The notes below the pieces were generated by a model. The model was not told the origin of the DNA. It did no database searches and was given only the letters and a program-made list of their open reading frames with translations. Positions 21,111 through 35,405 of a DNA stretch of 64,000 nt are shown one piece after another. The stretch covers positions 670 to 64,669 of the forward strand of contig QHTK01000050.1 of assembly GCA_003220795.1 (NCBI GenBank), in the 5' to 3' direction. Origin of the DNA: Gemmatimonadota bacterium (GTDB lineage Bacteria > Gemmatimonadota > Gemmatimonadetes > Gemmatimonadales > GWC2-71-9). Both the position numbers and the translations under genes were made by a program. Positions within the stretch are counted from its first letter, which is position 1; each line of letters begins with the position of its first letter.

Positions 21111-22118
21111 TTAAGAGGTGACGATCGCGCGGCGATCGCCGTTCCGTGCGCCGCACTGCCTGAAGAGCTCGGCAAACGTGGCTGCGTACGGCTCGAGAAG
21201 CATGTTGTTGACGTTGCAGCCATCCGGTCCGAAGTACTCTTCGGCGTGCGGCACGACTGATCGCCAGCGCAGCGGCTCGTCGCGGGAACGCACCGAATCC
21301 TCGGAGGGCACGAACAAGCAGACCCGACCCGCATAATGACCAGGGGTGTAGCGACGCCCCGCCGCCAACGTGGCGCGCTCCACTTTGGCGCGCAGGACCA
21401 GAGCCGGATCCGGCGTGGCAGCACGCTCGGCGGCGCGCTGCGCCTTGCGCTGGCGCAGCTTCTCGGCCACGTACGACCGCCGCTCCTCGGACGACAGCGA
21501 TACCAGCGCACGGGTGTGTCCGACCACCCATTCCACCTGTTGTGCGAATCGCTCCCGCAGGAGCGGCAAGCGTCGGAACCTGGCCGGATACGGGGCGCCG
21601 AACAGGGCGAGCAAGCTGATCGCGGTGCCCTCTTGGAGCAATCGTCGCGCCAGCTCGAACGCGATCATGCCGCCGGCGCAGAAGCCGGCGATGATGTACG
21701 GACCATGCGGCCGGCAGGCGCGGATCTGCGGTGCGAAGTACTCGGCCAGATCCTCGACGCGCGCCAGCGGCTTGCTCTCGTCCTCGAGGCCCGGAGGTTG
21801 GAGCCCGTACAACGGCTGCTCATCGCCCAGGTGCCGGGCGATGTAGCGGTAGCAGAACACGTCGCCGTTGTGTCCTCCCACGCCAAAGATGGGCGTGCGG
21901 TTCCCGTGCGGCTGCAATGGTACGATGGCCCGCGGCCGCTGCGCGAGCGTGCCGGCCACGCGCAAGAATTCCAGGATATCGTTCTTGCGTTGCTGCAGCC
22001 GATCGCGCAGCTCGGGCGTTAGCACGTCGGGGGGACCATTGCACCGCAGCCGGTCGCCGTCCGCCCACACGTGAATGTCCCGGCCGCGTAGCTCCGCGAG
22101 AAACGCCGACACCGTCAC
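21111..22118 (-). CDS. stand-alone thioesterase with N-terminal TubC-type beta-hairpin docking domain and Cys at the nucleophile elbow
   Basis: GTG 22118 overlaps the PKS stop (GTGA). Residues VSAFLAELRGRDIHVWADGDRLRCNGPPDVLTPELRDRLQQRKNDILEFL match the TubC_N docking pattern. The alpha/beta-hydrolase TE body reads PIFGVGGHNGDVFCYRYIARHLG...YIIAGFCAGGMIAFELARRL. The elbow is G-F-C-A-G, with codon TGC at 21678-21680 checked on the DNA. Confidence 0.8.
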   Translation of the reverse strand: MTVSAFLAELRGRDIHVWADGDRLRCNGPPDVLTPELRDRLQQRKNDILEFLRVAGTLAQRPRAIVPLQPHGNRTPIFGVGGHNGDVFCYRYIARHLGDEQPLYGLQPPGLEDESKPLARVEDLAEYFAPQIRACRPHGPYIIAGFCAGGMIAFELARRLLQEGTAISLLALFGAPYPARFRRLPLLRERFAQQVEWVVGHTRALVSLSSEERRSYVAEKLRQRKAQRAAERAATPDPALVLRAKVERATLAAGRRYTPGHYAGRVCLFVPSEDSVRSRDEPLRWRSVVPHAEEYFGPDGCNVNNMLLEPYAATFAELFRQCGARNGDRRAIVTS

Positions 22119-25100
22119 AGCTCGATCTCCACCCGGTTGCCGGCTACCGCGCGCCCCGTCGGAGCGCTCGTCGCCCACGCCAGCGCATCGATATAGCGCG
22201 ACAGTTCCGCGACCGTCGGTGCATCAAACAGCGCTCTTACCGGCAAGTCGATCTCGAAGGCCCTCCGCAGTTCGGCCACAATCCTGACCGCCAAGAGAGA
22301 GTGCCCACCCAGCTCCGCAAAACTGTCATGGATGCCCACTTCCTTGATCCCCAGGGCATCCTGCAAGATGCCAGCAATCTGCTTCTCCCTTTCATCCCGC
22401 GGCGCATCATAGCTGGTCTGCAACCTGGGCCGCGGGGCAAGCGCCGATCGAGTCGCACTCGCCACCAGGGCAGGGCCCTGCGCATTCAGTGATTCCAGCT
22501 TGATCCACTGATCGATGCGTGCGCCGAGATCGCCCGTCGACACGACGAGTTGGCTGGCAGTCTTCACGGCCAGCACGGTTTCCATCATCGCCGTCGCTTC
22601 CGGGGCGCTCATGCCCAGTTCCTTGAGCGTTGTCCCGAGACCCGACTCCCTCGCCGTGTCGTCCTCCAGGCGCCAAACGTCCCAGTTCACGCTCAGCCAG
22701 GGTACGGGGGATGTCCGGTTGTGTCGGCGCGCAAACGCGTCCATGTAGATGTTGGACGCGGCGTAGGCGGCCTGCCCGATGCCGCCGAGCACGGATGTCA
22801 AGGAGGACATGAGCAGGCAGAAGTCCAACGGTTTGCCGTCGAGCACGTCTTCCAGCACATGCAAACCGTGTACCTTGGCCTGAAAGTGCCCATCACAATT
22901 GTCAGGGTCGCTCTCTTTGATCTCGCGATAGCCGTCGTCTCCCACGATGCCCGCCCCATGGATGACGCCGTGGAGAACGCCAAAGCGTCGCTCCGCTTGC
23001 TCGATGACCCCTCGCATGGCGGTGGCATCCGCCACACTCGCGTTCACATACAGGACCTCGCCGCCCAGTTTCTCGATCTTCCGAACCGCGCCGATGCTCG
23101 TGCTGACGGGATCATCGGCTGGGTGGCTGCCGATCCACGCGTCCCAGGATTCTCTGCCGGGCAGGCGCGAACGCCCGACCAGCACGAGCCTCGCCCGGTA
23201 GCGCTCGGCGAGGTCCGCCGAGATCGCGACACCGATCTTGCCGAGGCCACCGGTGATGAGATACACACCGCCCTGCCGGAAGGGCGAGCGGTGAGCGGTG
23301 TTGCCTGGTACGACACGCTCGTAGGTCTGCACCCAGCGCTGCCCGTTTCGATAGGCAACGAACAGGCTCGCATCAGAGTCCAGCAGCTCTCCAACAAGGC
23401 GATCCGCGGCGGCGTCGTGCTCACTGGCAGGTGCCGCGACATCGAAATCGACATCGATACTCTTCACGCGGACATTGGCGTACTCTTGACGAATCACCAT
23501 GCACGGCCCCAGCAGCGTCGCTTTCTCCGGGCAGACGGTTTCCGTACAAGAGACCTCGTGGACGTTGTTGGAGAACGCGAACAGCTTGATCTCGTGTCGC
23601 ACGTTGTGTGCGGCGAGCGCACGGGCCAGAAACACCAGGCTGAAAAAGCCTCGGGCCTGCGCCTGCCTGAAACGGTCGCCCGCCGGTTGAGGTGCAGGAA
23701 TGCCGGTGACACTCCAGGCATGCACGATGCGATCCGGCAGGGAGCGAGTCGCCTCCAGGGCTCGGATCAGCAAGTCATAGTGCTGCGAGTTCGCGGGTTC
23801 GATGGTGAACGTGTGAGGGTCCGCTTGTTGAAAGCGTGTGCCGATCCGCACGGTCACCACGGTGTGACCAGCGGCCTCGAGCCGTGTCACCAGGGTGGAG
23901 GCCAGCCCGGAATCATCGGCACATACCAGCCACGTTCTGGCACTCTCGTGCTGCAAGGCCGCTTCATGGATGTCGATGGCACTCGGCAACAGACGAGTCC
24001 AGGACGGCACGTACAGCCATTCGGAACGGTTCGGGTTCTTGTGAACCGTCACGTCCGTCGGCGGAGCGTCCGGTGCGACACGCAGTGGCTCCAGCCAGTG
24101 CTCCTGTCGCTCGAAAGGATACGTCGGCAACGCCACTCTGCGGCGCTGCCCACCGGACGGGACGTTGTCCCACGTGAGCTCGGCGCCTGACAGCCACAGC
24201 CTGGCGATGCCGTGCCACAGGAATTCGACGTCCGATTGGTTTTCGTAATGGTGCCGGATCGAGGACACCACCACCGGATCTCCGCCATCCCGGCGGTCCG
24301 GATGCTGCATCGCCAGCACGCCCAGCGTCCGGCCGGGCCCGGCTTCCAGGAGGATGGGATTCTTGAATTGCCAGAGTTCATGCAAGGCATCGCTGAACCT
24401 GGCGGTTCGAGTGCCATGCGTCGCCCAATAGGACGGCGTGGTCGCCTCGCGTCGCGTAATCCAGGTCCCGGTGACGTTGGAGATGTAGGGAATCGTCGGC
24501 TCGCCCAAACGAACCTTCCCCACCTCTTCCTCGAATGCCTGCACGATCGGATCAAGCATGCGCGAGTGAAAGGCGTGGGCATTCTGCACGGGCCGACAAA
24601 TGATGCTCTTGGCGTTCAACATCCGCTCGAACTCGCGGATCGCCGCAGCCGGACCTGCCACCACACACAAACGTGGCCCGTTGATCAACGAGATCGACAG
24701 CTCCTCGGTCAGTAGGGGAAGCAGTTCCTGTTCCGGCAGCGTCACGGCGAGCATGGCTCCCTGCGGCAACGCATGGACGAGCCTGGCTCGCGACGCGATC
24801 AGCCGCACGGCATCCTCCAGCGACAACACCCCAGCCAGACACGCCGCCACGTATTCACCCATGCTGTGACCGACAATGGCGTCGGGCGTGATACCCAACG
24901 ATTGCCAGAGACGGGTCATGGCATATTCGATCGTGAACAGCGCCGGCTGGGCAAACAGCGTCTGGTTGAGCGTCCGGGCGTCTGGATCCTCCGCGGCAGC
25001 CGTCGTGCGACCGAGCATCTCCTTCAGGTCGATCCCCTTGCTCTTGCCCGCCTTCTTCCAGCGCTGGCCAGGTGGGTACAGGATGTTGCGGATGTCGATC

Positions 25101-26803
25101 TCCAGGTGCGGCTCGAGCAAGCGCGCGCAGCGATCGACTTCTTGCCTGAACACGGGCCACCCTTCGTACACATCATGGGCCATGCCCGGGTAGTGATCGC
25201 CGATACCGGGCAGCAACAGGATCACCGGTCGCCGTGGCTCGCTGGTGCGGCCGGTAACGACGCGCTTCGAGTCTTCCTGTCCGAGGGCGGTAATGGCGTC
25301 CGCGCGGTCGACGCAGACGAGACCCCGCCGATGTGGAAACGCTTTGCGTCCGATGCGCAGGGTGTGAGCCACGTCGCTCAGGTTCACGCAGTCGTTCCCG
25401 ATCAGGAACTCCCGTAAGCGCTGCGTGGCCAGGTCGAGCGCCGTTCTAGTCTTCGCCGACAGCAGCAGCACGTGAGGAGGACGGGCATCCGTCGATGCAG
25501 CCGGCTCCGGCGCTTCCTCGAGCACGAGGTGGGCGTTCGTGCCGCCCATGCCGGTGGACATCACGCCGGCTCGTCTGGGTCCGTCGCTGGTCCAGTCCCG
25601 CAAGCGCGTGTTCACGTAGAATGGCGTGCGGGCAAAATCGATTTCGGGATTGGCCTCCGTGAAGTGGAGACTGGGCGGAAGCTGTCGGTGCTGGAGGGCA
25701 AGGACCGTCTTGATGATACCGGTGACGGCCGCCGCGGCGTCGAGGTGTCCCACATTGGTCTTTACCGAACCGATGGCGCAGTAGCCGGAGCGCTGGGTAA
25801 AGGTGCGGAACGCCTTGGTCAAGGCTCGGACCTCGATGGGATCCCCGACTGGCGTTCCCGAGCCGTGGGCCTCGAGGTAGGTGATGCCGTCGGCCTCGAC
25901 CCCGGCATTGGCCAGCGCCTCCACTACCGCATCGGCCTGGCTGTCGACGCTGGGCGCCGTGTAACCGGCCTTGGCCGCACCATCGTTGTTGACGGCCGAT
26001 CCCTTGATCACGGCGTGGATGGCGTCCCCGTCCGCGAGGGCGTCCGCCAACCGCTTCAGCACCAGGATGCCGCCGCCGCTACCGAACACGGTGCCGTTGG
26101 CCTTGGCGTCAAACGCCCTGACGTGCCCGTCCGGCGAGACGACTCCGCCACCATCACAGAAGTAGCCTGCGCGATGCGGGACCCGCACTGACACTGCCCC
26201 AGCCAAGGCCATGTCGATTTCTTCACTCAAGAGGCTCTGACGGGCCAGGTGGACGGCCACCATGGAGGTCGAGCACGCCGTCTGAACGGTGATGCTGGGC
26301 CCCTTCAAGTTGAGCTTGTAAGAGATCCTGGTGCTCAGAAAATCCTTGTCGTTGCCGATGAGGGTGGGGATGTACTCCTCGGCGAGGCGGCGGTTCAGCC
26401 CGACGTTCGTGAAATAGGTGTTCAGGGCGGTTCCGCTGAACACGCCGACGCGTCCCTGCCAGCGATCCGGGTCATACCCGGCGTGCTCGAGCGCCTCATA
26501 GGCCAGTTCCAACAGGAGCCGGTGCTGTGGATCCATCGTCTTGGCTTCCATCGGCGAGAAGCCGAAGAATCCTGCGTCAAAACCGCCCGGCTGCTCCAGG
26601 ATCGGCGCGGCTTTTACGTAGCTCGGGTTGCTGAGATAGGATGGCGGCACGCCCGATTCCAGGATCTCCTGATCGGAAAGCCGAGCAATCGACTCGATGC
26701 CTGCGGTCAGGTTACGCCAGAACTCGTCGATGTCGCGCGCGCCTGGGAAGCGACCGGCCATCCCGACGATGGCGATATCGGACTCGGTATGCACGGCAGT
26801 CAT
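22115..26803 (-). CDS. type I polyketide synthase, single module KS-AT-KR-ACP
   Basis: Approximate domain spans follow. KS is 25514-26782 (TACSTS Cys at 26273-26275, EAHGSGT, NVGHLD). AT is 24317-25231 (GHSMGE Ser at 24863-24865, HAFHS). KR is 22517-24019 (GGLGKIG, K..S..YAASN). ACP is 22172-22393 (LGGHSL). ATG 26803 overlaps the A-domain stop (TGATG). Confidence 0.92.
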   Translation of the reverse strand: MTAVHTESDIAIVGMAGRFPGARDIDEFWRNLTAGIESIARLSDQEILESGVPPSYLSNPSYVKAAPILEQPGGFDAGFFGFSPMEAKTMDPQHRLLLELAYEALEHAGYDPDRWQGRVGVFSGTALNTYFTNVGLNRRLAEEYIPTLIGNDKDFLSTRISYKLNLKGPSITVQTACSTSMVAVHLARQSLLSEEIDMALAGAVSVRVPHRAGYFCDGGGVVSPDGHVRAFDAKANGTVFGSGGGILVLKRLADALADGDAIHAVIKGSAVNNDGAAKAGYTAPSVDSQADAVVEALANAGVEADGITYLEAHGSGTPVGDPIEVRALTKAFRTFTQRSGYCAIGSVKTNVGHLDAAAAVTGIIKTVLALQHRQLPPSLHFTEANPEIDFARTPFYVNTRLRDWTSDGPRRAGVMSTGMGGTNAHLVLEEAPEPAASTDARPPHVLLLSAKTRTALDLATQRLREFLIGNDCVNLSDVAHTLRIGRKAFPHRRGLVCVDRADAITALGQEDSKRVVTGRTSEPRRPVILLLPGIGDHYPGMAHDVYEGWPVFRQEVDRCARLLEPHLEIDIRNILYPPGQRWKKAGKSKGIDLKEMLGRTTAAAEDPDARTLNQTLFAQPALFTIEYAMTRLWQSLGITPDAIVGHSMGEYVAACLAGVLSLEDAVRLIASRARLVHALPQGAMLAVTLPEQELLPLLTEELSISLINGPRLCVVAGPAAAIREFERMLNAKSIICRPVQNAHAFHSRMLDPIVQAFEEEVGKVRLGEPTIPYISNVTGTWITRREATTPSYWATHGTRTARFSDALHELWQFKNPILLEAGPGRTLGVLAMQHPDRRDGGDPVVVSSIRHHYENQSDVEFLWHGIARLWLSGAELTWDNVPSGGQRRRVALPTYPFERQEHWLEPLRVAPDAPPTDVTVHKNPNRSEWLYVPSWTRLLPSAIDIHEAALQHESARTWLVCADDSGLASTLVTRLEAAGHTVVTVRIGTRFQQADPHTFTIEPANSQHYDLLIRALEATRSLPDRIVHAWSVTGIPAPQPAGDRFRQAQARGFFSLVFLARALAAHNVRHEIKLFAFSNNVHEVSCTETVCPEKATLLGPCMVIRQEYANVRVKSIDVDFDVAAPASEHDAAADRLVGELLDSDASLFVAYRNGQRWVQTYERVVPGNTAHRSPFRQGGVYLITGGLGKIGVAISADLAERYRARLVLVGRSRLPGRESWDAWIGSHPADDPVSTSIGAVRKIEKLGGEVLYVNASVADATAMRGVIEQAERRFGVLHGVIHGAGIVGDDGYREIKESDPDNCDGHFQAKVHGLHVLEDVLDGKPLDFCLLMSSLTSVLGGIGQAAYAASNIYMDAFARRHNRTSPVPWLSVNWDVWRLEDDTARESGLGTTLKELGMSAPEATAMMETVLAVKTASQLVVSTGDLGARIDQWIKLESLNAQGPALVASATRSALAPRPRLQTSYDAPRDEREKQIAGILQDALGIKEVGIHDSFAELGGHSLLAVRIVAELRRAFEIDLPVRALFDAPTVAELSRYIDALAWATSAPTGRAVAGNRVEIEL

Positions 26804-28437
26804 CAACGCCCCACCCGCATGAGCGGCTCCGGCAAGGCCTTGCGATCCGCTTTCCCGCTCGGTGTCACGGGGATTGCGTCGATTCTCTCGAATCGATTGG
26901 GGATCATATAGTCGGGAAGGTGTTGCTTGAGGAAATGCTTCAGACCCGCCATCTCCAGGTCAGATTTGCAGACCACGTACGCGACGATGAGGATGATGGT
27001 GTCCGAGTACTGCTTGACCACGGCCACGCAGTCGCTGATGCCCGGGTACTCCCGGATCGTGTTTTCAATCTCGCCCAGTTCGATGCGCAATCCCCGGATC
27101 TTTACCTGGTGATCCTCCCGGCCGAGATACTCGATATTCCCGTCCGGCAGCCAGCGGGCGATGTCGCCGGTTCGATAGACGCGTTCGCCGGGGTTCGCCG
27201 GATTGTCGGTGAACTTCTCGTCGGTCAGGGCGGCGTTGTTCAGGTAGCCGCGCGCCAGACCGATCCCCGCGATGCACAACTCACCGGGCTCCCCGATCGC
27301 CATCGACCGGCCGTCTCTGATGATGGAGAGCGTGATGTTGTGGATCGGTCTCCCGATGGGAATGATGTCGAAGTCGTTGTGCGGGGGGCAATCGAAATAG
27401 CTGACGTCGACCGTCGCCTCGGTCGGCCCGTAGAGGTTGGTGAGTCGGGTCCCGGTCTTGCTGCCCCAAATATCGTTGAACTTCCTGACGTGACTGGGCG
27501 TCAGCGCTTCACCGCTCGCAAATACCCGCCGCACCGACGCCAGCCGGTTCACCACGCCCGCAGGCTTGCCGTCCAGGTACTCGAGAAACACGTTCAGCAT
27601 CGATGGAACGAAGTGCATGACGCTGACGTGATGTGTGTCGATGGTTTCGACAATGGCCAGGGGATTCCGTTCCCCGCCCGGCACCAGGAAGCAGAGCGTG
27701 GCGCCCTGCAGGGCCCACCAGAACAACTCCCACACCGAAACGTCGAAATAGTAGGGCGTCTTTTGCAGAATGACGTCCCGGTGATCGATCGGGTAGGCGT
27801 GTTGCATCCAGTGCAAGCGGTTGACGAGAGAGCGATGCTCGATCATCACCCCCTTGGGTTTGCCGGTCGACCCCGACGTATAGATCACATAGGCCAGGTC
27901 CCGCGGCGTGTTGACGATCGCGGGGTTCGCGGTTGACGCCCGGTACACGTCGGGGTCGTCGAGATTGATGATCCGCCCCCTGAAGGCGATCCGGTCGGCG
28001 GTCTTGTTCTGCACCAACAGGACGGTGACCCCCCCATCCTTCAGCAGGTAGGAAATGCGATCCGGCGGATTGTCTGGCGAGATGGGCAGATAGGCGCCGC
28101 CGGCCTTCAGGATGCCCAGGATGCCCACGATCATGGCAAAGGAGCGTTCCACCAACAACGCGACGATGTGTCCCGGCCCGACACCCGCGGCCCGCAACAC
28201 ATGCGCCAGTTGATTGACCTTGCCATTGAGCTGCGCGTACGTGAGCGATGGCACGCCGAGCACGGAGTCGTGGTCGCAGATGACGGCCGTTCTATCGAAA
28301 TGCCTGTCGAGCTGCGCCTCGATCAATGCCTGCAGCGTGACGTTATCGGGAAACGGCGTCTCCGTGCGGTTGAATTGCGCGATCCTCGCGAGATCGGCGG
28401 CGGTAGCGACGCGTGGCGGGTGAGCGGCCATGGGCAT
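26803..28437 (-). CDS. stand-alone NRPS adenylation enzyme, predicted L-serine-activating (ZmaJ-like)
   Basis: A-domain core motifs LTYAQLN, YTSGSTGKPKG, FDVSVWE, NLYGPTE, YRTGD, GRxDxQVKIRG and PSGKADRK. There is no C or PCP domain. The 10-residue code from my by-eye alignment to GrsA-PheA is DVWHFSLVDK. ATG 28437 overlaps the upstream stop (TGATG). Confidence 0.85.
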   Translation of the reverse strand: MPMAAHPPRVATAADLARIAQFNRTETPFPDNVTLQALIEAQLDRHFDRTAVICDHDSVLGVPSLTYAQLNGKVNQLAHVLRAAGVGPGHIVALLVERSFAMIVGILGILKAGGAYLPISPDNPPDRISYLLKDGGVTVLLVQNKTADRIAFRGRIINLDDPDVYRASTANPAIVNTPRDLAYVIYTSGSTGKPKGVMIEHRSLVNRLHWMQHAYPIDHRDVILQKTPYYFDVSVWELFWWALQGATLCFLVPGGERNPLAIVETIDTHHVSVMHFVPSMLNVFLEYLDGKPAGVVNRLASVRRVFASGEALTPSHVRKFNDIWGSKTGTRLTNLYGPTEATVDVSYFDCPPHNDFDIIPIGRPIHNITLSIIRDGRSMAIGEPGELCIAGIGLARGYLNNAALTDEKFTDNPANPGERVYRTGDIARWLPDGNIEYLGREDHQVKIRGLRIELGEIENTIREYPGISDCVAVVKQYSDTIILIVAYVVCKSDLEMAGLKHFLKQHLPDYMIPNRFERIDAIPVTPSGKADRKALPEPLMRVGR

Positions 28438-29603
28438 CAGTCGGATCGGGCCAACGGGCCGCATCTGCCGGCTTGATCGACGAAGATCTTCCCCAGGATG
28501 TCTTCATGGATCTGGGTGGTGCCTTCGATGATCTCCATGATCTTGGCGTCCCGGTAATACCGGGACACCGCGGAGGATCCGTGACAGCCCGCCGCCCCCT
28601 GGATCTGCACGGCATCGGACGCGGCTCGCACCACGGCTCGCGACGTGAAGTACTTGGCCATCAAGGTCTTCTCGAACGCTTCCGGACGATGGTCGTCCTC
28701 CGCGCGGCAGGCAGTGTGGCACAACGCGCTCGCGGCCTCCAAATCGGTGCCCATGCGCGCGATCAGCGATCGGACCATCCCCATGTCGCCCACGGTCTTG
28801 TCGCCGATCTTCCGCATGGCGGCGTGGGCGATGCTTTCCTCGAAGCATCCTCGCAGCAGCCCCAATGCCGAGCAGGCCGTGCTGATGCGTCCGTAGTGCA
28901 AGCCTACCGGGGCGACGTGGGACAAGGCGTAGCCGGGCTTGCCAACGAGGTTGGCGGATGGCACTTCCACATCTTGGAAGTGCAGCTGCGCCAGGCCGGC
29001 CGCGCGGAACCCCAGCAAATCGGAGATGGGTTCGATGCGCAGACCGGGAGTGTCCTTGGGCACCACACACGCCACCGAACGTCCTCCCAGGGTCCCGAAC
29101 ACCAGAAACACCGCGGCGAACTGGGCGCAGCTGATCCATTTCTTGCTTCCGTTCAGCACGAGCCCCTGTGAGTTCCCGGTGAACTCCGTCACCAGCGACT
29201 GCATGGCACTGCCGGCGCCCGGCTCCGTCAGGGCGAAGGCCCCGAGCATCTCCCCCTTGGCGAGGGGAGGAAGCCATCTGCGCTTCTGCTCCGTCGTGCC
29301 CCACTTGAGGAGCGCCATAGACACCATCGCTTGGACCGTGAGGACGCCCGTCAAAGCGGACGATGCTCTCCCGAAGGCTTCATTCAGCAAACCGAACGTG
29401 ACGATATCCCATCCCTGGCCGCCATACTCCGGCGGCAGACTGCAGCCCAGGTAGCCGGCCTGGGCCATCTGCGAGATCACGCCCGCGGGGACCTGCTGGT
29501 CCCGGTCCCACTGCTCGGCGAACGGGGCGACGTTCAGCGTGACAAAGGCCTTGAATTCCTCTCTCTTCTCAACCACTCGGCCGTCCGTTCTTGCGCAGGA
29601 CAA
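28437..29603 (-). CDS. acyl-CoA/acyl-ACP dehydrogenase (FkbI/ZmaI-like)
   Basis: ACAD fold with YYRDAKIMEIIEGTTQI (catalytic Glu block). The start is uncertain: TTG 29603 or GTG 29576. Both overlap the ACP gene's end. Confidence 0.8.
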   Translation of the reverse strand: MSCARTDGRVVEKREEFKAFVTLNVAPFAEQWDRDQQVPAGVISQMAQAGYLGCSLPPEYGGQGWDIVTFGLLNEAFGRASSALTGVLTVQAMVSMALLKWGTTEQKRRWLPPLAKGEMLGAFALTEPGAGSAMQSLVTEFTGNSQGLVLNGSKKWISCAQFAAVFLVFGTLGGRSVACVVPKDTPGLRIEPISDLLGFRAAGLAQLHFQDVEVPSANLVGKPGYALSHVAPVGLHYGRISTACSALGLLRGCFEESIAHAAMRKIGDKTVGDMGMVRSLIARMGTDLEAASALCHTACRAEDDHRPEAFEKTLMAKYFTSRAVVRAASDAVQIQGAAGCHGSSAVSRYYRDAKIMEIIEGTTQIHEDILGKIFVDQAGRCGPLARSD

Positions 29604-29847
29604 AGGCCGTCGTCGCGTTGAGCGACTTGAAATTCTCGATGTCCAGATCGTCCCGCCCCATTTCCATAGCGAACGTCTTCTCGATGAAGGTCATCAACTG
29701 CACCGCAAACAAGGAATTGACGATTCCCGATTCGAACAGGTTGGCGTCATCGTCCAAGTCCGGGACGGCGATCGAGCTCAGGATGAAGCTCCGGATCGTG
29801 TGTTTGATGCCGTTCGGGTCCGCGGTGCTCATGGACTCCTCCGTCAT
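29569..29847 (-). CDS. free-standing acyl carrier protein (FkbJ/ZmaH-like)
   Basis: 92 aa with FESGIVNSLFAVQLMTFIEKTF (Ser attachment motif, NSL variant of DSL). ATG 29847 overlaps the upstream stop (ATGA). An alternative ATG lies at 29832. Confidence 0.8.
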   Translation of the reverse strand: MTEESMSTADPNGIKHTIRSFILSSIAVPDLDDDANLFESGIVNSLFAVQLMTFIEKTFAMEMGRDDLDIENFKSLNATTAFVLRKNGRPSG

Positions 29848-30707
29848 TCCAGGCCCGGATAGGCATGAAATCCCCTTCCGGTCTTCCGCCCCAAATGGCC
29901 GGCATGCACCAGCTTTCTCAGCAACGGACAGCAGCGGTACTTCGGATCCCGAAAGCTTTCGTACAGGACATCGAGCGACCGCATCACCGTGTCCAAGCCG
30001 ATCAGGTCCGCGGTTTCCAACGGTCCCATCTTGTGCCCGAAGCATTTCTTGAAGATCGAGTCGATCTGCTCGGCCGTCGCCACGTTATCCTGCAGCACAA
30101 ACGCGGCCTCGTTCATGAACAAATGGGAAATCCGGTTGGACACAAAGCCCGGCATGTCCTGGACGATGATGGCTTCCTTGCCAAGCACGGCAAACAGCCG
30201 CAGCAACGTGTCGACGGTCCCGTCGGAGGTATGGAACCCGCGAATCACCTCGACGGTCGGTTTCAGATGAACCGGATTCATGAGGTGGATGCCCACCACG
30301 TTGGCCGGACGCCCGGTGGCGCTGGCTATCTGCGTGATCGGGATACACGACGTATTGGCCCCAAAACACACCTCGCGTGGCGCCACTCGATCCAGCTGCT
30401 CATAGACCGGCTTCTTGACATGCCAGTCCTCGGTCACGTTCTCGATGATGAAGTCACATGACGCCACGTCCTGCAGATCGGTCGTGAACACCATGCGTTG
30501 CAGGGCGTCCTCCGGCGTTACGCGTGGCAGCGTCTTCGACAGCAAGGGGACGCAGCGGACGTTGTTCAACACGGCGGCTTGCGCGCGCTTCAGGATGTCT
30601 TGCGAGATGTCCACCACGACCGCGGATATCCCATGCAGCACCAGGTCGGTTACGACGCCGCTGCCGATGTTTCCCGCGCCCAGCACGCCGATCTGTTTGA
30701 ATTGCAT
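29844..30707 (-). CDS. 3-hydroxyacyl-CoA/ACP dehydrogenase (FkbK/ZmaG-like)
   Basis: MQFKQIGVLGAGNIGSG NAD fold plus a 3HCDH C-terminal domain (GFVSNRI...GPLETADLIGLD). ATG 30707 lies 2 nt after the upstream TAA. The track ORF extension to 30842 is spurious. Confidence 0.85.
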   Translation of the reverse strand: MQFKQIGVLGAGNIGSGVVTDLVLHGISAVVVDISQDILKRAQAAVLNNVRCVPLLSKTLPRVTPEDALQRMVFTTDLQDVASCDFIIENVTEDWHVKKPVYEQLDRVAPREVCFGANTSCIPITQIASATGRPANVVGIHLMNPVHLKPTVEVIRGFHTSDGTVDTLLRLFAVLGKEAIIVQDMPGFVSNRISHLFMNEAAFVLQDNVATAEQIDSIFKKCFGHKMGPLETADLIGLDTVMRSLDVLYESFRDPKYRCCPLLRKLVHAGHLGRKTGRGFHAYPGLE

Positions 30708-30709
30708 GG

Positions 30710-33700
30710 TTACGACGCCTTCCGCCGCGTGACGTTGCGCCGCCGCTGACCCCGTAACGCGGCCGCGGCGGCGCTGCCGGCGCCGTCGCGCCCGCCGGAG
30801 GCCGCGCGTAATTTGGCGGCCAACAGGCTCACGGTGGGGCACTCGAACAGGCTGACGATCGACAGATGCTGCTTCAGCTCCCGCTTGATCGCGGCAATCA
30901 CCTGCACCGCCCGGAGGGACGTGCCGCCCACGTCGAAGAAATTGTCGTGGATCCCGATGCGCCGGCCCAACACCCTACTCCAGATGTTCAACAGCGCGGC
31001 TTGTAGCGTGCTGGACGGTGCGACGTCGACCGGAGCATCGAGCGGCTGCTTTCGGAGCCGGTATGCCTCGATGGCCTTTGCGACCCGGTCGATGTCGTAC
31101 AGGTGTTCCCCGATCACCTGCAGGGGCTCCGACCGATCACCGACGCCGAATCCCCAGACCTGTCGGGGCGGGCGGGCGTCCGGGTGGGGAGGCGCCGGCG
31201 CCTCGAGCCCGGGGTGCGCCGTTTGGTCGGGGTCGTATGCGAGGCTCGCCAGGCGGTCAGCGGCGAACGTCCAGGACGCGCCGGCCGGGTCGCCGTCGGG
31301 ACCGCCGATGTTCCGGATGAACTCCCGGACCGGCGCATTCTTTTCCGTCGGCCGATGGGAGAGTTCCACGAGGCGTTTGCCTTCCCTGGCCGCCTGCTGG
31401 CCGAGGTGAGCCAGGACCGCGTGCTCCACGCCTTTGCCCAACACCCGACAGCTCAACAGCAGGGTATCCACTTTGTAGCGGTCGGTCGCTGTCTCATACA
31501 TCACGACCCCGACCAGCCCGTAGTCCCCGAATCGGTCGACGACGTGAACCACCAGACAGGTGACATCGTTCTGCTGCAAGATGTCTCGAATCTCCTGCTC
31601 CGAGCGTCGGATGGTGGTGAAGTTGAATTGGTTCGTTCGGAACGTCAGCTGCGACACACGGGCGAGCTGGTCGTCGGTCGCTTCGGCGATCTCGACGCGC
31701 AGTTGCAGCCCGTTCACAAAGTCTTTCAAAGAGAGGGTTTGCTCCCGGAACCGTTGCCGCTCCGCGTTTTCCTGGTACATCCGGGTGCGGGCGCGATCTT
31801 CCTCGGTCGCACCCGCGTGATCGAACGCCCACACACGATTCAGGAACGCCGGGATCGACTCGCTGCGCTGCGGCAGCTGCAACGTCAACACGCCGGGGCA
31901 GTTGATGCGGACATCCGCGCAATCCACCGGGTTGTCATCGATGAAGATGAAGCTCTCCAACCCGAGATTGAGCTCGTGCGCGAGCGACATGACGTTCTCC
32001 GACTTGCTGTTCCAATTGATGCGCCGCGCAACCAGGTGCTCGCGCTTCAGCACCATGTCGGTCCGCTGGTCGAAGACGTCCAGCACATCCTGCTCGTTGT
32101 TCTTGCTGCACAGACAGAGCAGCATGCCGGCGTTCATGCGCCCGAGCATGAATTCCTGCAACCGGCGGAACGGGGCGCTCACTTCGATGCCCTGCGGACC
32201 GTCCTCGCCGCACACCCCCTTCCACAACGTGTTGTCGCAGTCCAGCACGATCACCTTGAATGGCGGTCGCTGCAGGTTGTAGATGGTGCGGACCAGCGTC
32301 GTCCCGATCGCCGCGTAGCCCTGCGAGGTGTACGGGATGTGACCCGCCTGATCACTGTGCGGGTCGTAGTACTCGTCGACCGGATACTGCTGCAACGGCG
32401 ACGCCGAGCGGATCGTGTGCACGTTCGGTATCGTGGCGGCCGCCGTCCGCAAGGTCTGCTCGGCCTCGTCCAGCGCCGCCTTGAGGTCGGCGTCGGCTTC
32501 CGCGGGCGGGGTCCTGGGGCAGACACACAACACCACGGGCGCCGTGGCCTGGCTCATGAACGACCGCAGCGCGGTGCAGAAGTCCCGGACGGTTCGCTGT
32601 AGGCCGCCTGCCGTCTGACGTGACTGATCCAACCCGGATGCGACGGGCGCGTCACCCCGGGTTCCATAGAGATTGAACAACCCGGCATGCTCGAGCAGCC
32701 GTTCGTGTTCGACGGCGCAGCGGAACCCCTTCTGGACGAGCAGTGCTTCGATCTGTTTGACCGCCTGCTCGGTGCGGTCGTGGATCTCGATCACAATCTG
32801 GGCGATCTTCGGCCAGTCGCGATCGTCAATGCCCCGGATGATGTCCAGCTCGCTCTTTTCCGCATCGATCTTGAGGAGGTCGATCTTGTCGATCCGGTAC
32901 TCTCGAATCATCTCCGACACGGATGTCAGACGGCACTCGTGGGTCGTGCGACTGAGCCGGTTTGCGGTGAGCTCGGTGACATATTCCTCCACCGCGTCCC
33001 CTGCCACCGACGTCTCGCTGCTCAGGGTGTTCCGCACTACCGCTTGAATGGCCTCGCGGTCCTCGGTTTCATCTGCATGAAACCCCGAGAACACGGAGGA
33101 CTTCTCATAGAAGGTCAAGGTCGCGGTCTTGGGCCGGTCCGACACACCGACGTTCAGGGCTCGGACCTGCGATCCGTAGGCCTCGCAGTTGGCCTTCAAG
33201 AGCTCATACACGGCGGGCGCCGGTTCACAGGCGTAGATCGTCGGGTTGCGACAGCGGCTCATCACAAACAACGAGAACAGCCCGATGTTGGCCCCGATAT
33301 CCACCACCGTGGCTCCGTCCGGCAAGCGGATGCCATGCTTCAGATAGCAGCGATCTTCGAAGATCTCCTTGTAGACATAGTCCGTTTCATACCGGTTCAG
33401 ATGAACGATCTCCAGGCCATTGGGCAGGACGCATCTGGTCCGGTCGCCGAAGCACTGGTCCGCCCGTTCCCTGGTGAGCGTCATGACCCCGCGCGGATCC
33501 CCCGTGGCCCACGCCTCCAACCCCAAGAGGATGACTTTGACTGCGTCGCGGCGCGTGCGGAACGCGCTGCCCGCGTCCAGCAGCTGCTGAAAGATCTGAT
33601 TGTAGGGCGCAAATTCGACGTGGATCGGCGTGCCGAAATGGTCACCCCAGAAGCGCAGGGAATCCTCTACCGGCTCAGCGGTGAAATTCGAGGCGATGAC

Positions 33701-34543
33701 GAGGTTGGCGGCCGTCGCTTCACCGGCCGCGTCGGCGCGGTCCAGCACGCTGAACGTGACGCCGGAGAGATCGAAGTACGGCGTGCCGGACTGGTCGAAC
33801 ACCCGAACGTTGCCGACGAGACTCTTGCCATCGCGTTCACTCTCCGGAAGCAGCACGGCGTGCCCCCAGAGCGTATCGGGGAAGCGGACGTCCGTTACTG
33901 CGATCTTCTCGATCGACCGCAGGATGAACGTCTTCCCCTGCTCGAGCATGCAGGACGCCAGTAACTGGGTGGCGGAGTCGAGCAGGCTCGGGTGCAGGTC
34001 AGGTTCGTCGACTGCTCCGTCTCGGTGCGCTACGGCAAGCCGCCCCAAGGACTGGTCCCCTGCCCGCCAGATCGACGCAACGTGTTGAAACCCGGGCCCG
34101 TATTGGTTGCCATTTTCACGGAGCGTCTTGTAGAACCGGTCCGAGTCGATCAGGTCATGAGACTGCGCTTGGAACGCTTCGATGGAAAACGCTTCCGTGC
34201 TCGCTCTCGGAGACGGTGCCGGGTTCCGGTCGATGTCGAGCTTGGCAGCAGGCTCCGCAACCCCTGCTTCGTAGAACGTGTATTCAACGCGGCCGTTGCC
34301 GTGATCCCCGACGTCGACCCTTACGATCGTGTCTTCTGCCGAAACAATGATGGGATTGTGAAACGTCACGTTCCGGACGAGACCCGCAACGCCCTTGGAG
34401 CGTTCACGCTCCAGGCGCAGGGCCATGTCGACGTAGCACGACCCGGGCAGCACGACCATGTCGTGGAACCCGTGATCTGCCAGGTACGGCATGGAACGAA
34501 TGCCGATCCTGAATTCGGCGGAGGCTACTTCAGTTGTGCTCAC
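30710..34543 (-). CDS. multidomain loading-type protein: PKS dehydratase - FkbH-like domain with embedded FkbM methyltransferase - ACP
   Basis: Approximate domain spans follow. DH is 33719-34522 (LADHGFHDMVVLPGS and LLDSATQ). The FkbH N-subdomain is 33494-33712 (NLVIASNFTAEPVEDSLRFW). The FkbM MTase is 32654-33421 (VVDIGANIGLFSLF...IDLLKIDAEKSELDII). The FkbH HAD core plus C-terminal domain is 31229-32551 (VLDCDNTLW, LLSCRVLGKGVE). ACP is 30809-31021 (FFDVGGTSL). I prefer GTG 34543 (GGGGA SD) over TTG 34573. Confidence 0.85.
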   Translation of the reverse strand: MSTTEVASAEFRIGIRSMPYLADHGFHDMVVLPGSCYVDMALRLERERSKGVAGLVRNVTFHNPIIVSAEDTIVRVDVGDHGNGRVEYTFYEAGVAEPAAKLDIDRNPAPSPRASTEAFSIEAFQAQSHDLIDSDRFYKTLRENGNQYGPGFQHVASIWRAGDQSLGRLAVAHRDGAVDEPDLHPSLLDSATQLLASCMLEQGKTFILRSIEKIAVTDVRFPDTLWGHAVLLPESERDGKSLVGNVRVFDQSGTPYFDLSGVTFSVLDRADAAGEATAANLVIASNFTAEPVEDSLRFWGDHFGTPIHVEFAPYNQIFQQLLDAGSAFRTRRDAVKVILLGLEAWATGDPRGVMTLTRERADQCFGDRTRCVLPNGLEIVHLNRYETDYVYKEIFEDRCYLKHGIRLPDGATVVDIGANIGLFSLFVMSRCRNPTIYACEPAPAVYELLKANCEAYGSQVRALNVGVSDRPKTATLTFYEKSSVFSGFHADETEDREAIQAVVRNTLSSETSVAGDAVEEYVTELTANRLSRTTHECRLTSVSEMIREYRIDKIDLLKIDAEKSELDIIRGIDDRDWPKIAQIVIEIHDRTEQAVKQIEALLVQKGFRCAVEHERLLEHAGLFNLYGTRGDAPVASGLDQSRQTAGGLQRTVRDFCTALRSFMSQATAPVVLCVCPRTPPAEADADLKAALDEAEQTLRTAAATIPNVHTIRSASPLQQYPVDEYYDPHSDQAGHIPYTSQGYAAIGTTLVRTIYNLQRPPFKVIVLDCDNTLWKGVCGEDGPQGIEVSAPFRRLQEFMLGRMNAGMLLCLCSKNNEQDVLDVFDQRTDMVLKREHLVARRINWNSKSENVMSLAHELNLGLESFIFIDDNPVDCADVRINCPGVLTLQLPQRSESIPAFLNRVWAFDHAGATEEDRARTRMYQENAERQRFREQTLSLKDFVNGLQLRVEIAEATDDQLARVSQLTFRTNQFNFTTIRRSEQEIRDILQQNDVTCLVVHVVDRFGDYGLVGVVMYETATDRYKVDTLLLSCRVLGKGVEHAVLAHLGQQAAREGKRLVELSHRPTEKNAPVREFIRNIGGPDGDPAGASWTFAADRLASLAYDPDQTAHPGLEAPAPPHPDARPPRQVWGFGVGDRSEPLQVIGEHLYDIDRVAKAIEAYRLRKQPLDAPVDVAPSSTLQAALLNIWSRVLGRRIGIHDNFFDVGGTSLRAVQVIAAIKRELKQHLSIVSLFECPTVSLLAAKLRAASGGRDGAGSAAAAALRGQRRRNVTRRKAS

Positions 34544-35237: not shown

Positions 35238-35405
35238 GGTTTCTCCGGGATCCAATGCTGCGGCGTCCCTCACGGTAGATCGTGCGGCGGCTGGGTGGTG
35301 CAAATTTCGGACTGGGAGGGGACGCGGGCACCCGTGTCCGTTCCTGTTGCGTCGACGCCACACACCGTGTGCGTTCACCACGTTGCGGCGGCGGCCACAT
35401 GAAGA

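What the first reader, a model, noticed from the sequence alone, without database searches (positions are those of the whole stretch)
26803..30707. zmaG-H-I-J-like cassette with a serine-code A domain: predicted aminomalonyl-ACP (or related) unit
The gene order is 3-hydroxyacyl-CoA DH homologue, free ACP, acyl-CoA DH homologue, then a stand-alone A domain. That order mirrors zmaG-zmaH-zmaI-zmaJ, whose products convert L-Ser through seryl-ACP to (2S)-aminomalonyl-ACP. I aligned the A domain by eye to GrsA-PheA anchors (FDVSVWE, VMHFVPS, VFASGE, NLYGPTEATVD, SGKADRK). The resulting specificity code is D-V-W-H-F-S-L-V-D-K, the textbook L-Ser code. The A protein ends about 15 residues after the A10 Lys, so it must load the free ACP in trans. 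Aminomalonyl-ACP is a rare extender unit.
Basis: partly seen in the sequence, partly recalled or inferred. Interest (0 to 1): 0.78.

Follow-up and report, generated by a model that had tools for sequence, protein, structure and literature searches.

The report
Serine-to-aminomalonyl carrier cassette in soil PKS operon

Summary
On the minus strand, 26803-30707 encodes HADH, a free 87-aa ACP, ACAD and a carrier-less A protein, with overlapping stop and start codons. Aligned to GrsA-PheA, the A domain reads DVWHFSLVDK. ZmaJ and ClbH-A1, taken here as the serine-loading enzymes of the two aminomalonyl pathways, read DVWHFSLIDK. All four proteins match ZmaG/H/I/J best among the references (55, 43, 47 and 51% identity). 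The ACAD groups with ZmaI rather than ZmaE or FkbI.

The cassette lies inside an eight-gene operon: PPTase, DH-FkbM_MT-FkbH-ACP, the cassette, KS-AT-KR-ACP, and a docking-domain TE. This raises a hydroxy/methoxymalonyl rival. Three results argue against it:
- Only the free ACP is of the extender-unit type.
- The FkbH domain is of the carrier-fused type.
- Two related loci keep HADH-ACP-ACAD-A without any FkbH.

One point is unresolved. The only AT has malonyl-CoA-type motifs (GHSMG, HAFH), and there is no ZmaF/ClbG-like AT, so how aminomalonyl reaches the KS is not explained.

Verdict: a new member of the aminomalonyl-ACP cassette family, in a seemingly uncharacterised operon found in soil MAGs labelled as several phyla. 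Interest is moderate.

The parts
29844..30707 (-). 3-hydroxyacyl-CoA dehydrogenase family protein (287 aa), ZmaG/ClbD homologue. Predicted seryl-ACP 3-dehydrogenase.
   Evidence: Pfam 3HCDH_N and 3HCDH. BLASTP: ZmaG 54.8%/355 bits, S. canus cassette HADH 54%/298 bits, ClbD 47%/273 bits, S. viridifaciens 40%/208 bits. The best solved beta-oxidation-type enzyme scores 229 bits.
29569..29832 (-). Free acyl carrier protein (87 aa) of the extender-unit type, ZmaH/ClbE homologue. Predicted carrier of seryl, then aminomalonyl.
   Evidence: PP-binding. ZmaH 43%/70.5 bits is the best match. The VNSLF phosphopantetheine site aligns with ZmaH and ClbE. It scores 87.3 bits against a profile of five extender-unit ACPs, versus 4.0 bits for the FkbH-fused ACP and 9.3 bits for the PKS ACP.
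28437..29576 (-). Acyl-CoA dehydrogenase family protein (379 aa), ZmaI homologue. Predicted second oxidation, giving aminomalonyl-ACP.
   Evidence: Three ACAD Pfam domains. BLASTP: ZmaI 47.4%/368 bits, S. canus 43%/275, ClbF 40%/259, ZmaE 35%/256, FkbI 32%/168, generic ACAD 4u83 32%/166. In the NJ tree the window family groups with ZmaI (printed support 97).
26803..28437 (-). Stand-alone adenylation protein (544 aa, no carrier domain), ZmaJ homologue with an L-Ser specificity code.
   Evidence: AMP-binding and AMP-binding_C. TIGR01733 434 bits. Code DVWHFSLVDK. ZmaJ 50.8%/529 bits and ClbH-A1 46%, both with code DVWHFSLIDK. Best NCBIfam hit is the SolG model; SolG is predicted to insert serine.
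30710..34573 (-). DH - FkbM-family methyltransferase - FkbH - ACP protein (1260-1287 aa, start codon uncertain). Predicted glycerate-derived loading module.
   Evidence: Pfam PKS_DH_N/PS-DH, Methyltransf_21 and PP-binding. TIGR01686 FkbH 6.9e-94 and fkbM_fam 4.9e-24. The DH His, YGP and DxxxQ motifs, the FkbH DxDxT motif and the SCRV Cys are conserved in 7 orthologues. The FkbH domain is 44-56% identical to FkbH domains inside larger proteins that carry their own carrier domain where checked, but only 29-34% to ZmaN-type FkbH.
22115..26803 (-). Single type I PKS module, KS-AT-KR-ACP (1562 aa).
   Evidence: Pfam domains. KS Cys and both His motifs are visible in the translation. The AT has GHSMGE and HAFH, with ICR at the RXR position. 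Its start overlaps the A stop codon.
21111..22118 (-). TubC-type N-terminal docking domain plus thioesterase (335 aa). Predicted chain release.
   Evidence: Pfam TubC_N 4.8e-18 and Thioesterase 3.8e-22. Orthologues are present in L007 and L009. In L089 a C-A-PCP-TE module replaces it, and the downstream gene in L090/L091 begins C-A-PCP.
34530..35237 (-). Sfp/HetI-type 4'-phosphopantetheinyl transferase (235 aa), first gene of the operon.
   Evidence: Pfam ACPS and AASDHPPT_N. NCBIfam HetI 5e-43. Conserved next to the cluster in L002, L003, L007, L009 and L090.

Best explanation
The four genes are a zmaG-H-I-J-type cassette that makes aminomalonyl-ACP from L-serine.

Proposed steps:
1. The stand-alone A protein adenylates L-Ser and loads it in trans on the free 87-aa ACP (inferred from the specificity code and from homology to ZmaJ).
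2. The HADH-family enzyme oxidises the seryl side-chain hydroxyl to the aldehyde.
3. The ACAD-family flavoenzyme oxidises that to the carboxylate, giving aminomalonyl-ACP. Steps 2 and 3 are inferred by homology to ZmaG/ZmaI and ClbD/ClbF, whose chemistry is taken from my knowledge of the literature.

The cassette is embedded in, and translationally coupled to, a one-module assembly line.
- The upstream DH-MT-FkbH-ACP protein most likely loads glycerate from 1,3-bisphosphoglycerate on its own fused ACP. It probably then dehydrates and O-methylates it to a C3 starter such as 2-methoxyacrylyl.
- KS-AT-KR-ACP performs a single condensation and ketoreduction.
- The docking-domain TE releases the product.

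The simplest way to use every conserved part is glycerate-derived starter plus aminomalonyl extender. That would give a small alpha-amino-beta-hydroxy acid. This last step is inference only and conflicts with the AT motifs.
For: Domains and order:
- The domain content and gene order match the zwittermicin cassette.

A-domain specificity:
- The code is DVWHFSLVDK in the window and in 118 of 120 close homologues; the other two read DVWHFSLIDK.
- ZmaJ and ClbH-A1 both read DVWHFSLIDK.
- The best NCBIfam hit is the SolG model, and SolG is predicted to insert serine.

Homology to the Zma enzymes:
- All four proteins match ZmaG/H/I/J best among the references.
- The ACAD family groups with ZmaI and apart from ZmaE and the FkbI pair (printed support 97).

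Which carrier the dehydrogenases use:
- Only the free ACP belongs to the extender-unit ACP type: 87 bits, versus 4 and 9 bits for the two fused carriers.

Independence from FkbH:
- L006 and L064 retain HADH-ACP-ACAD-A at 58-69% identity, with the same code.
- They have no FkbH, DH, FkbM-MT, KS or KR hit at E<=1e-3.
- The dehydrogenases therefore work with the Ser-loading A protein and do not depend on FkbH.

The FkbH module:
- The FkbH domain is of the type fused into larger carrier-bearing proteins, 44-56% identical to such proteins and 29-34% to ZmaN-type FkbH.
- Its DH and FkbH catalytic motifs are conserved.

Operon structure and conservation:
- Gene overlaps indicate one operon.
- The gene set is largely conserved in about ten soil MAGs labelled Verrucomicrobia, Betaproteobacteria/Burkholderiales and Acidobacteria/Terriglobia (one is labelled Enterobacteriaceae). 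L008 has a permuted order; some copies look frameshifted or fall partly outside the fetched DNA.
Against: - There is no biochemical evidence.
- No ZmaF/ClbG-type trans-AT is present. The only AT has GHSMG and HAFH, the motifs listed for the malonyl-CoA AT of ZmaK. The ACP-dependent ATs instead read GYSFG/GAAH (ZmaA) and GYSLG/GPFH (ZmaF).
- Aminomalonyl and hydroxymalonyl ACADs are not cleanly separated in the tree. ClbF groups with the FkbH-linked S. canus ACAD, so tree position is suggestive rather than diagnostic.
- The reference set is small: two aminomalonyl and four hydroxy/methoxymalonyl ACADs.
- A functional-looking FkbH lies next door, and ZmaG is, to my knowledge, shared by both pathways in zwittermicin.
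Confidence: 0.7

Rival explanations
1. Hydroxymalonyl or methoxymalonyl route. FkbH loads glycerate. HADH and ACAD oxidise glyceryl-ACP to hydroxymalonyl-ACP. The fused FkbM-type MT O-methylates it to methoxymalonyl-ACP, which is the extender. The A protein and free ACP merely supply a seryl starter.
For: - FkbH lies directly upstream and its catalytic motifs are intact.
- HADH-ACP-ACAD is also the order in FkbH-type cassettes of S. canus and S. viridifaciens.
- The S. canus HADH and ACAD are the second-best reference matches.
- This route would give the fused MT a textbook role.
Against: - The ACAD is much closer to ZmaI than to ZmaE or FkbI: 368 versus 256 and 168 bits.
- The FkbH-fused ACP is not of the extender-unit type, scoring 4 bits against 87 for the free ACP.
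- The FkbH domain is only 29-34% identical to cassette-type FkbH.
- HADH and ACAD persist together with A, and without FkbH, in L006 and L064.
- The MT is FkbM-family (Methyltransf_21), not the FkbG type.
- The AT motif HAFH fits methoxymalonyl no better than it fits aminomalonyl.
Confidence: 0.12
2. Dual use, as I recall for ZmaG in zwittermicin. The single HADH, and possibly the single ACAD, serve both seryl-ACP and glyceryl-ACP, so both aminomalonyl and hydroxy/methoxymalonyl units are made.
For: - The zwittermicin cluster fetched here has a single HADH gene (zmaG) alongside two ACAD genes, an FkbH gene and an A gene.
- The window cluster likewise combines one HADH with both an FkbH domain and a Ser-specific A protein.
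Against: - There is only one KS, so only one extender position is available.
- Zwittermicin needs two distinct ACADs and two free ACPs. Here there is one of each.
- The fused carrier type argues against dehydrogenase recognition.
Confidence: 0.08
3. Aminomalonyl-ACP, or an earlier Ser-derived intermediate, is made but is not a conventional AT-delivered extender. The cis-AT loads malonyl-CoA. The Ser-derived unit enters some other way: directly from the free ACP at the KS, by an iterative second round, or as an acyl donor for another acceptor.
For: - The AT motifs GHSMG/HAFH equal those of the malonyl-CoA AT of ZmaK.
- No ZmaF/ClbG-like AT is present.
- In L006 and L064 the same cassette sits beside KS-less AT-ACP proteins with a hydrophobic, apparently membrane-spanning C-terminal region. 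This shows the cassette feeds non-Claisen chemistry in some contexts.
Against: - There is no precedent I know of for a cis-AT module taking an extender directly from a foreign ACP.
- The same AT type (57-63% identity) travels with the cassette even where no KS exists. That is easier to explain if this AT handles the cassette product.
- The first residue of the RXR position is hydrophobic (I), as in ZmaF and ZmaA-AT, rather than K/R as in the CoA-using ATs of Table 3 in PMC4207774. This is a weak hint only.
Confidence: 0.25
4. These are ordinary fatty-acid beta-oxidation genes that happen to lie next to an NRPS-like gene.
For: Generic NCBIfam and Pfam names: 3-hydroxybutyryl-CoA dehydrogenase, acyl-CoA dehydrogenase.
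Against: - All NCBIfam beta-oxidation models score below their cut-offs.
- ZmaG and ZmaI score higher than any solved beta-oxidation enzyme.
- There is no thiolase or hydratase.
- A carrier protein lies between the two dehydrogenase genes, and the genes overlap with A and PKS.
- The unit is conserved with A in all related loci.
Confidence: 0.01

Closest known systems
Zwittermicin A aminomalonyl-ACP genes zmaG-zmaH-zmaI-zmaJ (Bacillus cereus/thuringiensis)
   Same: - Same four protein types in the same order.
- Identities: HADH 55%, ACP 43%, ACAD 47%, A 51%.
- The A code differs by one conservative residue (V/I).
- An FkbH gene is also present in the same cluster.
   Different: - Zwittermicin has a dedicated aminomalonyl-specific trans-AT (ZmaF), and a second ACP and ACAD (ZmaD, ZmaE) for hydroxymalonyl. 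None of these are present here.
- Here FkbH is fused to DH, an FkbM-type MT and its own ACP.
- The assembly line is a single PKS module rather than a large NRPS/PKS.
Colibactin aminomalonyl genes clbD-clbE-clbF with the first A domain of ClbH, and the trans-AT ClbG (E. coli pks island)
   Same: - HADH-ACP-ACAD order.
- ClbD 47%, ClbE 36%, ClbF 40%, ClbH-A1 46% identity.
- ClbH-A1 code DVWHFSLIDK.
- PGAP annotates ClbE as the aminomalonyl-acyl carrier protein.
   Different: - The serine-type A domain (the first A domain, by its code) is part of a multidomain NRPS (ClbH) rather than stand-alone.
- ClbG delivers the unit to AT-less modules (from my knowledge of the literature). ClbG is only 24% identical to the window AT, and its motif is VPYH rather than HAFH.
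Methoxymalonyl/hydroxymalonyl-ACP cassettes (FkbH-FkbI-FkbJ-FkbK-FkbG; ZmaN-D-E-G; asm13-17 type)
   Same: The same HADH, extender-unit ACP and ACAD families, often in the same order, with an FkbH partner nearby.
   Different: - The substrate is glycerate loaded by a stand-alone FkbH, and there is no A protein.
- The window ACAD is only 32% identical to FkbI and 35% to ZmaE.
- The window FkbH is of the carrier-fused type.
- No FkbG-type O-methyltransferase is present.
FkbH-containing PKS loading modules such as BryA DH-KR-FkbH-ACP of bryostatin, and the FkbH/O-MT start of phormidolide (recalled from memory; only the presence of FkbH-like and O-MT domains in phm was checked)
   Same: FkbH is fused to its own ACP and to tailoring domains that act on the glyceryl thioester to make a C3 starter.
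   Different: - Here the partner domains are DH plus an FkbM-family MT.
- The module feeds a single cis-AT module.
- I have no record of this exact architecture having been characterised.
- This comparison is a lead, not a test.

Membership tests
Aminomalonyl-ACP biosynthetic cassette (ZmaG/H/I/J, ClbD/E/F plus ClbH-A1) | Serine-specific adenylation enzyme that loads a separate carrier | tested here: met
   The code is DVWHFSLVDK, versus DVWHFSLIDK in ZmaJ and ClbH-A1. The protein has no carrier domain and ends 15 residues after the A10 Lys. Substrate and loading were not assayed.
Aminomalonyl-ACP biosynthetic cassette (ZmaG/H/I/J, ClbD/E/F plus ClbH-A1) | Discrete ACP of the extender-unit carrier type, encoded between the two dehydrogenase genes | tested here: met
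   87.3 bits against a profile of ZmaD, ZmaH, ClbE and two Streptomyces cassette ACPs. ZmaH is the best match (43%). The Ser site is conserved.
Aminomalonyl-ACP biosynthetic cassette (ZmaG/H/I/J, ClbD/E/F plus ClbH-A1) | HADH-family and ACAD-family oxidoreductases related to ZmaG/ClbD and ZmaI/ClbF | tested here: met
   ZmaG 55%/355 bits and ZmaI 47%/368 bits are the best reference hits. The ACAD groups with ZmaI (printed support 97).
Aminomalonyl-ACP biosynthetic cassette (ZmaG/H/I/J, ClbD/E/F plus ClbH-A1) | Conversion of seryl-ACP to aminomalonyl-ACP | not testable with these tools
   Requires in vitro reconstitution with intact-protein MS.
Aminomalonyl-ACP biosynthetic cassette (ZmaG/H/I/J, ClbD/E/F plus ClbH-A1) | Dedicated acyltransferase that moves aminomalonyl from the free ACP to the PKS (ZmaF or ClbG type) | tested here: not met
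   No free-standing AT is present in the operon. The cis-AT is 24-26% identical to ClbG and ZmaF and has GHSMG/HAFH, as in the malonyl-CoA AT of ZmaK. This concerns how the unit is used, not how it is made.
Hydroxymalonyl/methoxymalonyl-ACP cassette (FkbH/I/J/K/G; ZmaN/D/E/G) | FkbH-type glyceryl loader | tested here: met
   TIGR01686 6.9e-94, with DxDxT and SCRV Cys conserved. However, it is fused to its own ACP and is only 29-34% identical to cassette-type FkbH.
Hydroxymalonyl/methoxymalonyl-ACP cassette (FkbH/I/J/K/G; ZmaN/D/E/G) | ACAD of the FkbI/ZmaE lineage acting on glyceryl-derived ACP | tested here: not met
   FkbI 32%/168 bits and ZmaE 35%/256 bits, versus ZmaI 47%/368 bits. The tree places it with ZmaI. 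The FkbH-linked S. canus ACAD is nevertheless the second-best match (43%).
Hydroxymalonyl/methoxymalonyl-ACP cassette (FkbH/I/J/K/G; ZmaN/D/E/G) | Cassette depends on FkbH (no A protein) | tested here: not met
   An A protein is part of the unit in all related loci. L006 and L064 keep HADH-ACP-ACAD-A with no FkbH hit at E<=1e-3.
Hydroxymalonyl/methoxymalonyl-ACP cassette (FkbH/I/J/K/G; ZmaN/D/E/G) | FkbG-type O-methyltransferase (for the methoxy variant) | tested here: not met
   The only MT found among the operon's eight proteins is a fused FkbM-family domain (Methyltransf_21, TIGR01444).
Fatty-acid beta-oxidation HADH/ACAD | Reach the curated family cut-offs, and lie with thiolase/hydratase genes | tested here: not met
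   All NCBIfam beta-oxidation models score below their cut-offs. No thiolase or hydratase domain was found in the operon's eight proteins.

The most novel reading that the evidence does not exclude
The operon may belong to a widespread, horizontally mobile family of compact assembly lines in uncultured soil bacteria labelled as several phyla. Three novel features would follow.

1. It would join a glycerate-derived enol-ether starter to an aminomalonyl extender, giving a small, highly functionalised alpha-amino-beta-hydroxy acid. In relatives this would carry a further amino acid such as Thr, Val or a Gly-like residue.
2. It would use a new kind of cis-AT that has malonyl-CoA signature motifs yet takes aminomalonyl from a free ACP.
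3. Sister loci (L006, L064) couple the same cassette and AT type to ACP plus a hydrophobic, apparently membrane-spanning region, without any KS. This would be a Dlt-like route for putting a serine-derived acyl group on an envelope or extracellular acceptor.
Probability: 0.2. Interest if true: 0.75.

Novelty: new member of a known kind. Interest (0 to 1): 0.5.

Why it matters
To my knowledge, aminomalonyl-ACP is one of the rarest PKS building blocks, established for zwittermicin and colibactin and reported for guadinomine. It puts a free amine directly on a polyketide backbone.

A fourth lineage would broaden where this chemistry is known to occur. This one is compact (about 14 kb) and recurs at 60-83% protein identity in uncultured soil MAGs labelled Verrucomicrobia, Acidobacteria/Terriglobia, Betaproteobacteria/Burkholderiales and Steroidobacteraceae. 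Its small size makes it a tractable target for heterologous expression.

It would also give a test case for how an acyltransferase with malonyl-type motifs copes with an ACP-linked amino-substituted extender. That question bears on PKS engineering.

Tried and rejected
- **Literature searches.** I searched for a described cluster of this type (FkbH + aminomalonyl-ACP; FkbH + Acidobacteria + Verrucomicrobia; FkbH/FkbM/loading module/glyceryl; aminomalonyl since 2016). None described this operon. The primary zwittermicin papers (Chan 2006, Chan and Thomas 2010) are not held. The ZmaG/I/J and ClbD/F/H chemistry is therefore cited from my own knowledge plus PMC4207774 and PMC6164871.
- **Methyltransferase domain against PDB**. 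No hit at E<=0.01, so O- versus C-methylation could not be supported by a solved relative.
- **AT specificity from overall similarity.** The AT is equally similar to ZmaA-AT (hydroxymalonyl-ACP, 198 bits) and ZmaK-AT (malonyl-CoA, 219 bits), which is uninformative.
- **Three Streptomyces plasmid FkbH loci**. They were not methoxymalonyl cassettes and were not used as references.
- **Ralstonia megaplasmid FkbH locus**. It is a different architecture (C-FkbH-ACP) and served only as context.
- **Taxonomic placement from flanking genes.** No synteny with any related locus, no tRNA and no Rfam hit. The host taxon remains unknown.
- **Beta-oxidation reading.** Considered and rejected.
- **Bootstrap values**. 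They were read after re-rooting the tree, so only the window-plus-ZmaI grouping is relied on.

Full report
**1. Observation**

The interval 26803-30707 holds four tightly packed minus-strand genes.
- HADH, 29844-30707, 287 aa: 3HCDH_N 1.4e-45 and 3HCDH 8.3e-31.
- Free ACP, 29569-29832, 87 aa: PP-binding.
- ACAD, 28437-29576, 379 aa: three ACAD domains.
- A protein, 26803-28437, 544 aa: AMP-binding 6.7e-88 plus AMP-binding_C.

Independent gene calls on two ENA metagenome contigs that carry the same sequence give the same gene lengths. The ACAD stop overlaps the A start, and the A stop overlaps the PKS start, each by ATGA.

**2. Specificity code**

I checked my recalled GrsA fragment against PDB 1AMU. 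Every aligned residue but one is identical and the numbering agrees. I then aligned it with the window protein and 120 homologues.
- Positions 235, 236, 239, 278, 299, 301, 322, 330, 331 and 517 read DVWHFSLVDK in the window and in 118 homologues. The other two read DVWHFSLIDK.
- ZmaJ and the first A domain of ClbH both read DVWHFSLIDK. I take these to be the serine loaders of the two aminomalonyl pathways.
- The best NCBIfam hit is the model for SolG, a module predicted to insert serine (PMC10204066).
- The protein ends 15 residues after the A10 Lys and has no carrier domain.

**3.

The cassette is the middle of an eight-gene minus-strand operon:
- a Sfp/HetI-type PPTase (34530-35237);
- a 1260-1287-aa DH - FkbM-family MT - FkbH - ACP protein (30710-34573; TIGR01686 FkbH 6.9e-94);
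- the four cassette genes;
- a single KS-AT-KR-ACP module (22115-26803);
- a TubC-docking-domain thioesterase (21111-22118).

The island has 62-65% G+C, against 68-72% in the flanks. The flanks carry housekeeping genes: citrate synthase, dUTPase, phosphofructokinase and an M20 peptidase.

An FkbH domain next door matters for two reasons. HADH-ACP-ACAD is also the order in FkbH-dependent hydroxy/methoxymalonyl cassettes. I also recall that ZmaG is shared between both pathways in zwittermicin.

**4. Reference sequences**

- clbD, E, F, G and H from E. coli CFT073.
- zmaD, E, F, G, H, I, J, K and N from a B. thuringiensis plasmid. There zmaJ is annotated by name and the gene order is G-H-I-J.
- Two Streptomyces HADH-ACP-ACAD-FkbH cassettes. 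One of them has an ACAD 66% identical to FkbI (PDB 1R2J).

**5. Aminomalonyl versus hydroxymalonyl**

BLASTP results:
- ACAD: ZmaI 47.4%/368 bits, S. canus 43%/275, ClbF 40%/259, ZmaE 35%/256, FkbI 32%/168, generic ACAD 32%/166.
- HADH: ZmaG 54.8%/355, S. canus 54%/298, ClbD 47%/273.
- ACP: ZmaH 43%.
- A protein: ZmaJ 50.8%/529, ClbH-A1 46%.

An NJ tree places the window family with ZmaI (printed support 97), and apart from ZmaE and the FkbI pair. The support values were read after re-rooting, so I rely only on that grouping.

A profile built from five extender-unit ACPs scores the free ACP at 87.3 bits. The FkbH-fused ACP scores 4.0 bits and the PKS ACP 9.3 bits. The dehydrogenases' usual partner type is therefore the free ACP.

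The FkbH domain is 44-56% identical to FkbH domains embedded in larger proteins, for example Aquisphaera and Ralstonia (the latter is C-FkbH-ACP). It is only 29-34% identical to ZmaN-type and Streptomyces cassette-type FkbH.

Most telling are loci L006 (labelled Steroidobacteraceae) and L064 (labelled uncultured proteobacterium). They keep HADH-ACP-ACAD-A at 58-69% identity with the same Ser code. They have no FkbH, DH, FkbM-MT, KS or KR hit at E<=1e-3. The four genes are thus an independent unit whose loader is the Ser-specific A protein.

One caveat applies. ClbF groups with the FkbH-linked S. canus ACAD, so aminomalonyl and hydroxymalonyl enzymes are not cleanly separated. The reference set is also small.

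**6. The rest of the pathway (inference)**

- The catalytic His, the YGP motif and the DxxxQ Asp of the DH are conserved across seven orthologues. So are the DxDxT motif and the SCRV Cys of FkbH.
- A fused DH-MT-FkbH-ACP looks like a loading module that makes a dehydrated, methylated C3 starter from glycerate. By analogy, recalled and not tested, BryA has DH-KR-FkbH-ACP. Phormidolide synthase has FkbH-like and O-MT domains.
- The TE docking domain suggests it partners with the PKS, whose C-terminus ends in VEIEL.
- In relatives the TE is replaced by a C-A-PCP-TE module (complete in L089; the gene in L090/L091 begins C-A-PCP). The A-domain codes there are Thr-like, Val-like or Gly-like by my recollection of the standard codes.
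- The PKS is therefore the extension module that follows the FkbH loader. With one KS, the FkbH-ACP cargo can only be the starter. The free-ACP cargo can then only be the extender, or be unused.

**7. Unresolved conflict**

The only AT reads GHSMGE ... NAHAFHSR. Table 2 of PMC4207774 gives the following:
- ZmaK-AT (malonyl-CoA): GHSIG and HAFH.
- ZmaA-AT (hydroxymalonyl-ACP): GYSFG and GAAH.
- ZmaF (aminomalonyl-ACP): GYSLG and GPFH.

ClbG has GHSLG and VPYH. Overall similarity does not discriminate between substrates. No ZmaF/ClbG-like AT is encoded.

Two observations point the other way.
- This AT type (57-63% identity, with a shared insertion of about 30 residues that ClbG and ZmaF lack) accompanies the cassette in L006 and L064, where no KS exists.
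- The first residue at its RXR position is hydrophobic, as in ZmaF and ZmaA-AT. This is a weak hint.

How the Ser-derived unit reaches the KS is therefore not settled.

**8. Distribution**

- The 120 best database hits to the A protein are all stand-alone proteins of about 540 aa at 79-99% identity, mostly from metagenomes.
- Among species-representative genomes, the gene set is largely conserved (60-83% A-protein identity). It occurs in MAGs labelled Verrucomicrobia, Betaproteobacteria/Burkholderiales and Acidobacteria/Terriglobia, plus one labelled Enterobacteriaceae. One copy has a permuted order. Some copies look frameshifted or lie partly outside the fetched DNA.
- The flanks are not syntenic and G+C drops over the island. 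Both fit horizontal transfer.
- I found no paper describing this operon.

**9. Verdict**

The aminomalonyl-ACP interpretation is the best-supported reading, at about 0.7. The operon context (FkbH loader, single PKS module, malonyl-type AT) adds a serious rival, which I judge unlikely, and one real open question.

The cassette is a new member of a known, rare kind. Interest is moderate (0.5). It would be higher if the AT or the KS-less sister loci prove to use aminomalonyl in a new way.

Noticed in passing
L064:7694-19386 and L006:4544-14296: Sister loci carry the same HADH-ACP-ACAD-A(Ser) cassette but no KS or FkbH. Next to it lie two or three proteins made of a KS-AT-linker remnant, an AT (57-63% identical to the window AT), an ACP and a roughly 320-aa hydrophobic, apparently multi-pass membrane region with no Pfam hit. 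In L064 there is also a final AT-ACP-TE protein, a PLP-dependent decarboxylase and two methyltransferases. This could be a Dlt-like system that transfers a serine-derived acyl group across the membrane.
   Followed up: partly
window 24250-25230 (AT domain of the PKS, about aa 525-850): The AT has a conserved insertion of about 30 residues (YPPGQRWKKAGKSKGIDLKEMLGR...) upstream of the active-site GHSMG. The insertion is shared with the L006 and L064 ATs and is absent from ClbG and ZmaF. The AT combines malonyl-type HAFH with a hydrophobic first residue at the RXR position. Its function is unknown.
   Followed up: partly
L089:16280-20488; L090/L091 from about 20840; L001:17721-19286; L003; L013: In several relatives a downstream NRPS module (C-A-PCP-TE in L089) follows the PKS in place of the lone docking-TE. 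Its A-domain code varies: DFWNIGMVHK (Thr-like by recall), DALWLGGTFK (Val-like by recall) and DILA..M.WK types. The family therefore probably makes a series of related products, and the window variant is the shortest. In L090/L091 a glycosyltransferase, a VTT-domain protein and a transposase fragment are inserted between A and PKS.
   Followed up: partly
window 21111-36000 versus flanks: G+C drops to 62-65% across the operon, against 68-72% on both sides. The flanking genes (citrate synthase, dUTPase, PFK, M20 peptidase, DinB, DUF2157/GDYXXLXY) have no counterpart next to the cluster in any related locus. This is consistent with a horizontally acquired island.
   Followed up: yes
window 35406-36995 (-): An ORF directly upstream of the PPTase gene encodes a 529-aa protein with a DCC1-like thiol-disulfide oxidoreductase domain (6.9e-13) and a weak MauE-like membrane domain. 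No homologue was found beside the cluster in the other loci, so it is probably not part of the operon.
   Followed up: partly
L008:10001-21207: In a distant MAG labelled Verrucomicrobiota the same genes occur in a permuted order (A, PKS, DH-MT-FkbH-ACP, HADH, ACP). The genes therefore stay together even when the order changes. Here the DH has the canonical HxxxGxxxxP motif.
   Followed up: partly
L079:6319-21691 (Ralstonia solanacearum megaplasmid): The second-closest FkbH domain in plasmid records (51% identity) lies in a different, apparently uncharacterised line: FAAL, long ACAD, ACP, KS-ACP, C-FkbH-ACP, KS-AT-ACP-C, TE. There glycerate seems to be used as an in-line building block behind a condensation domain.
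   Followed up: partly
window 34492-34573: The start of the DH-MT-FkbH-ACP gene is uncertain. The metagenome gene call starts at MPYLADH (1260 aa), which would cut into the DH N-terminal fold. The longest ORF (TTG, 1287 aa) overlaps the PPTase gene end by about 40 nt.
   Followed up: no
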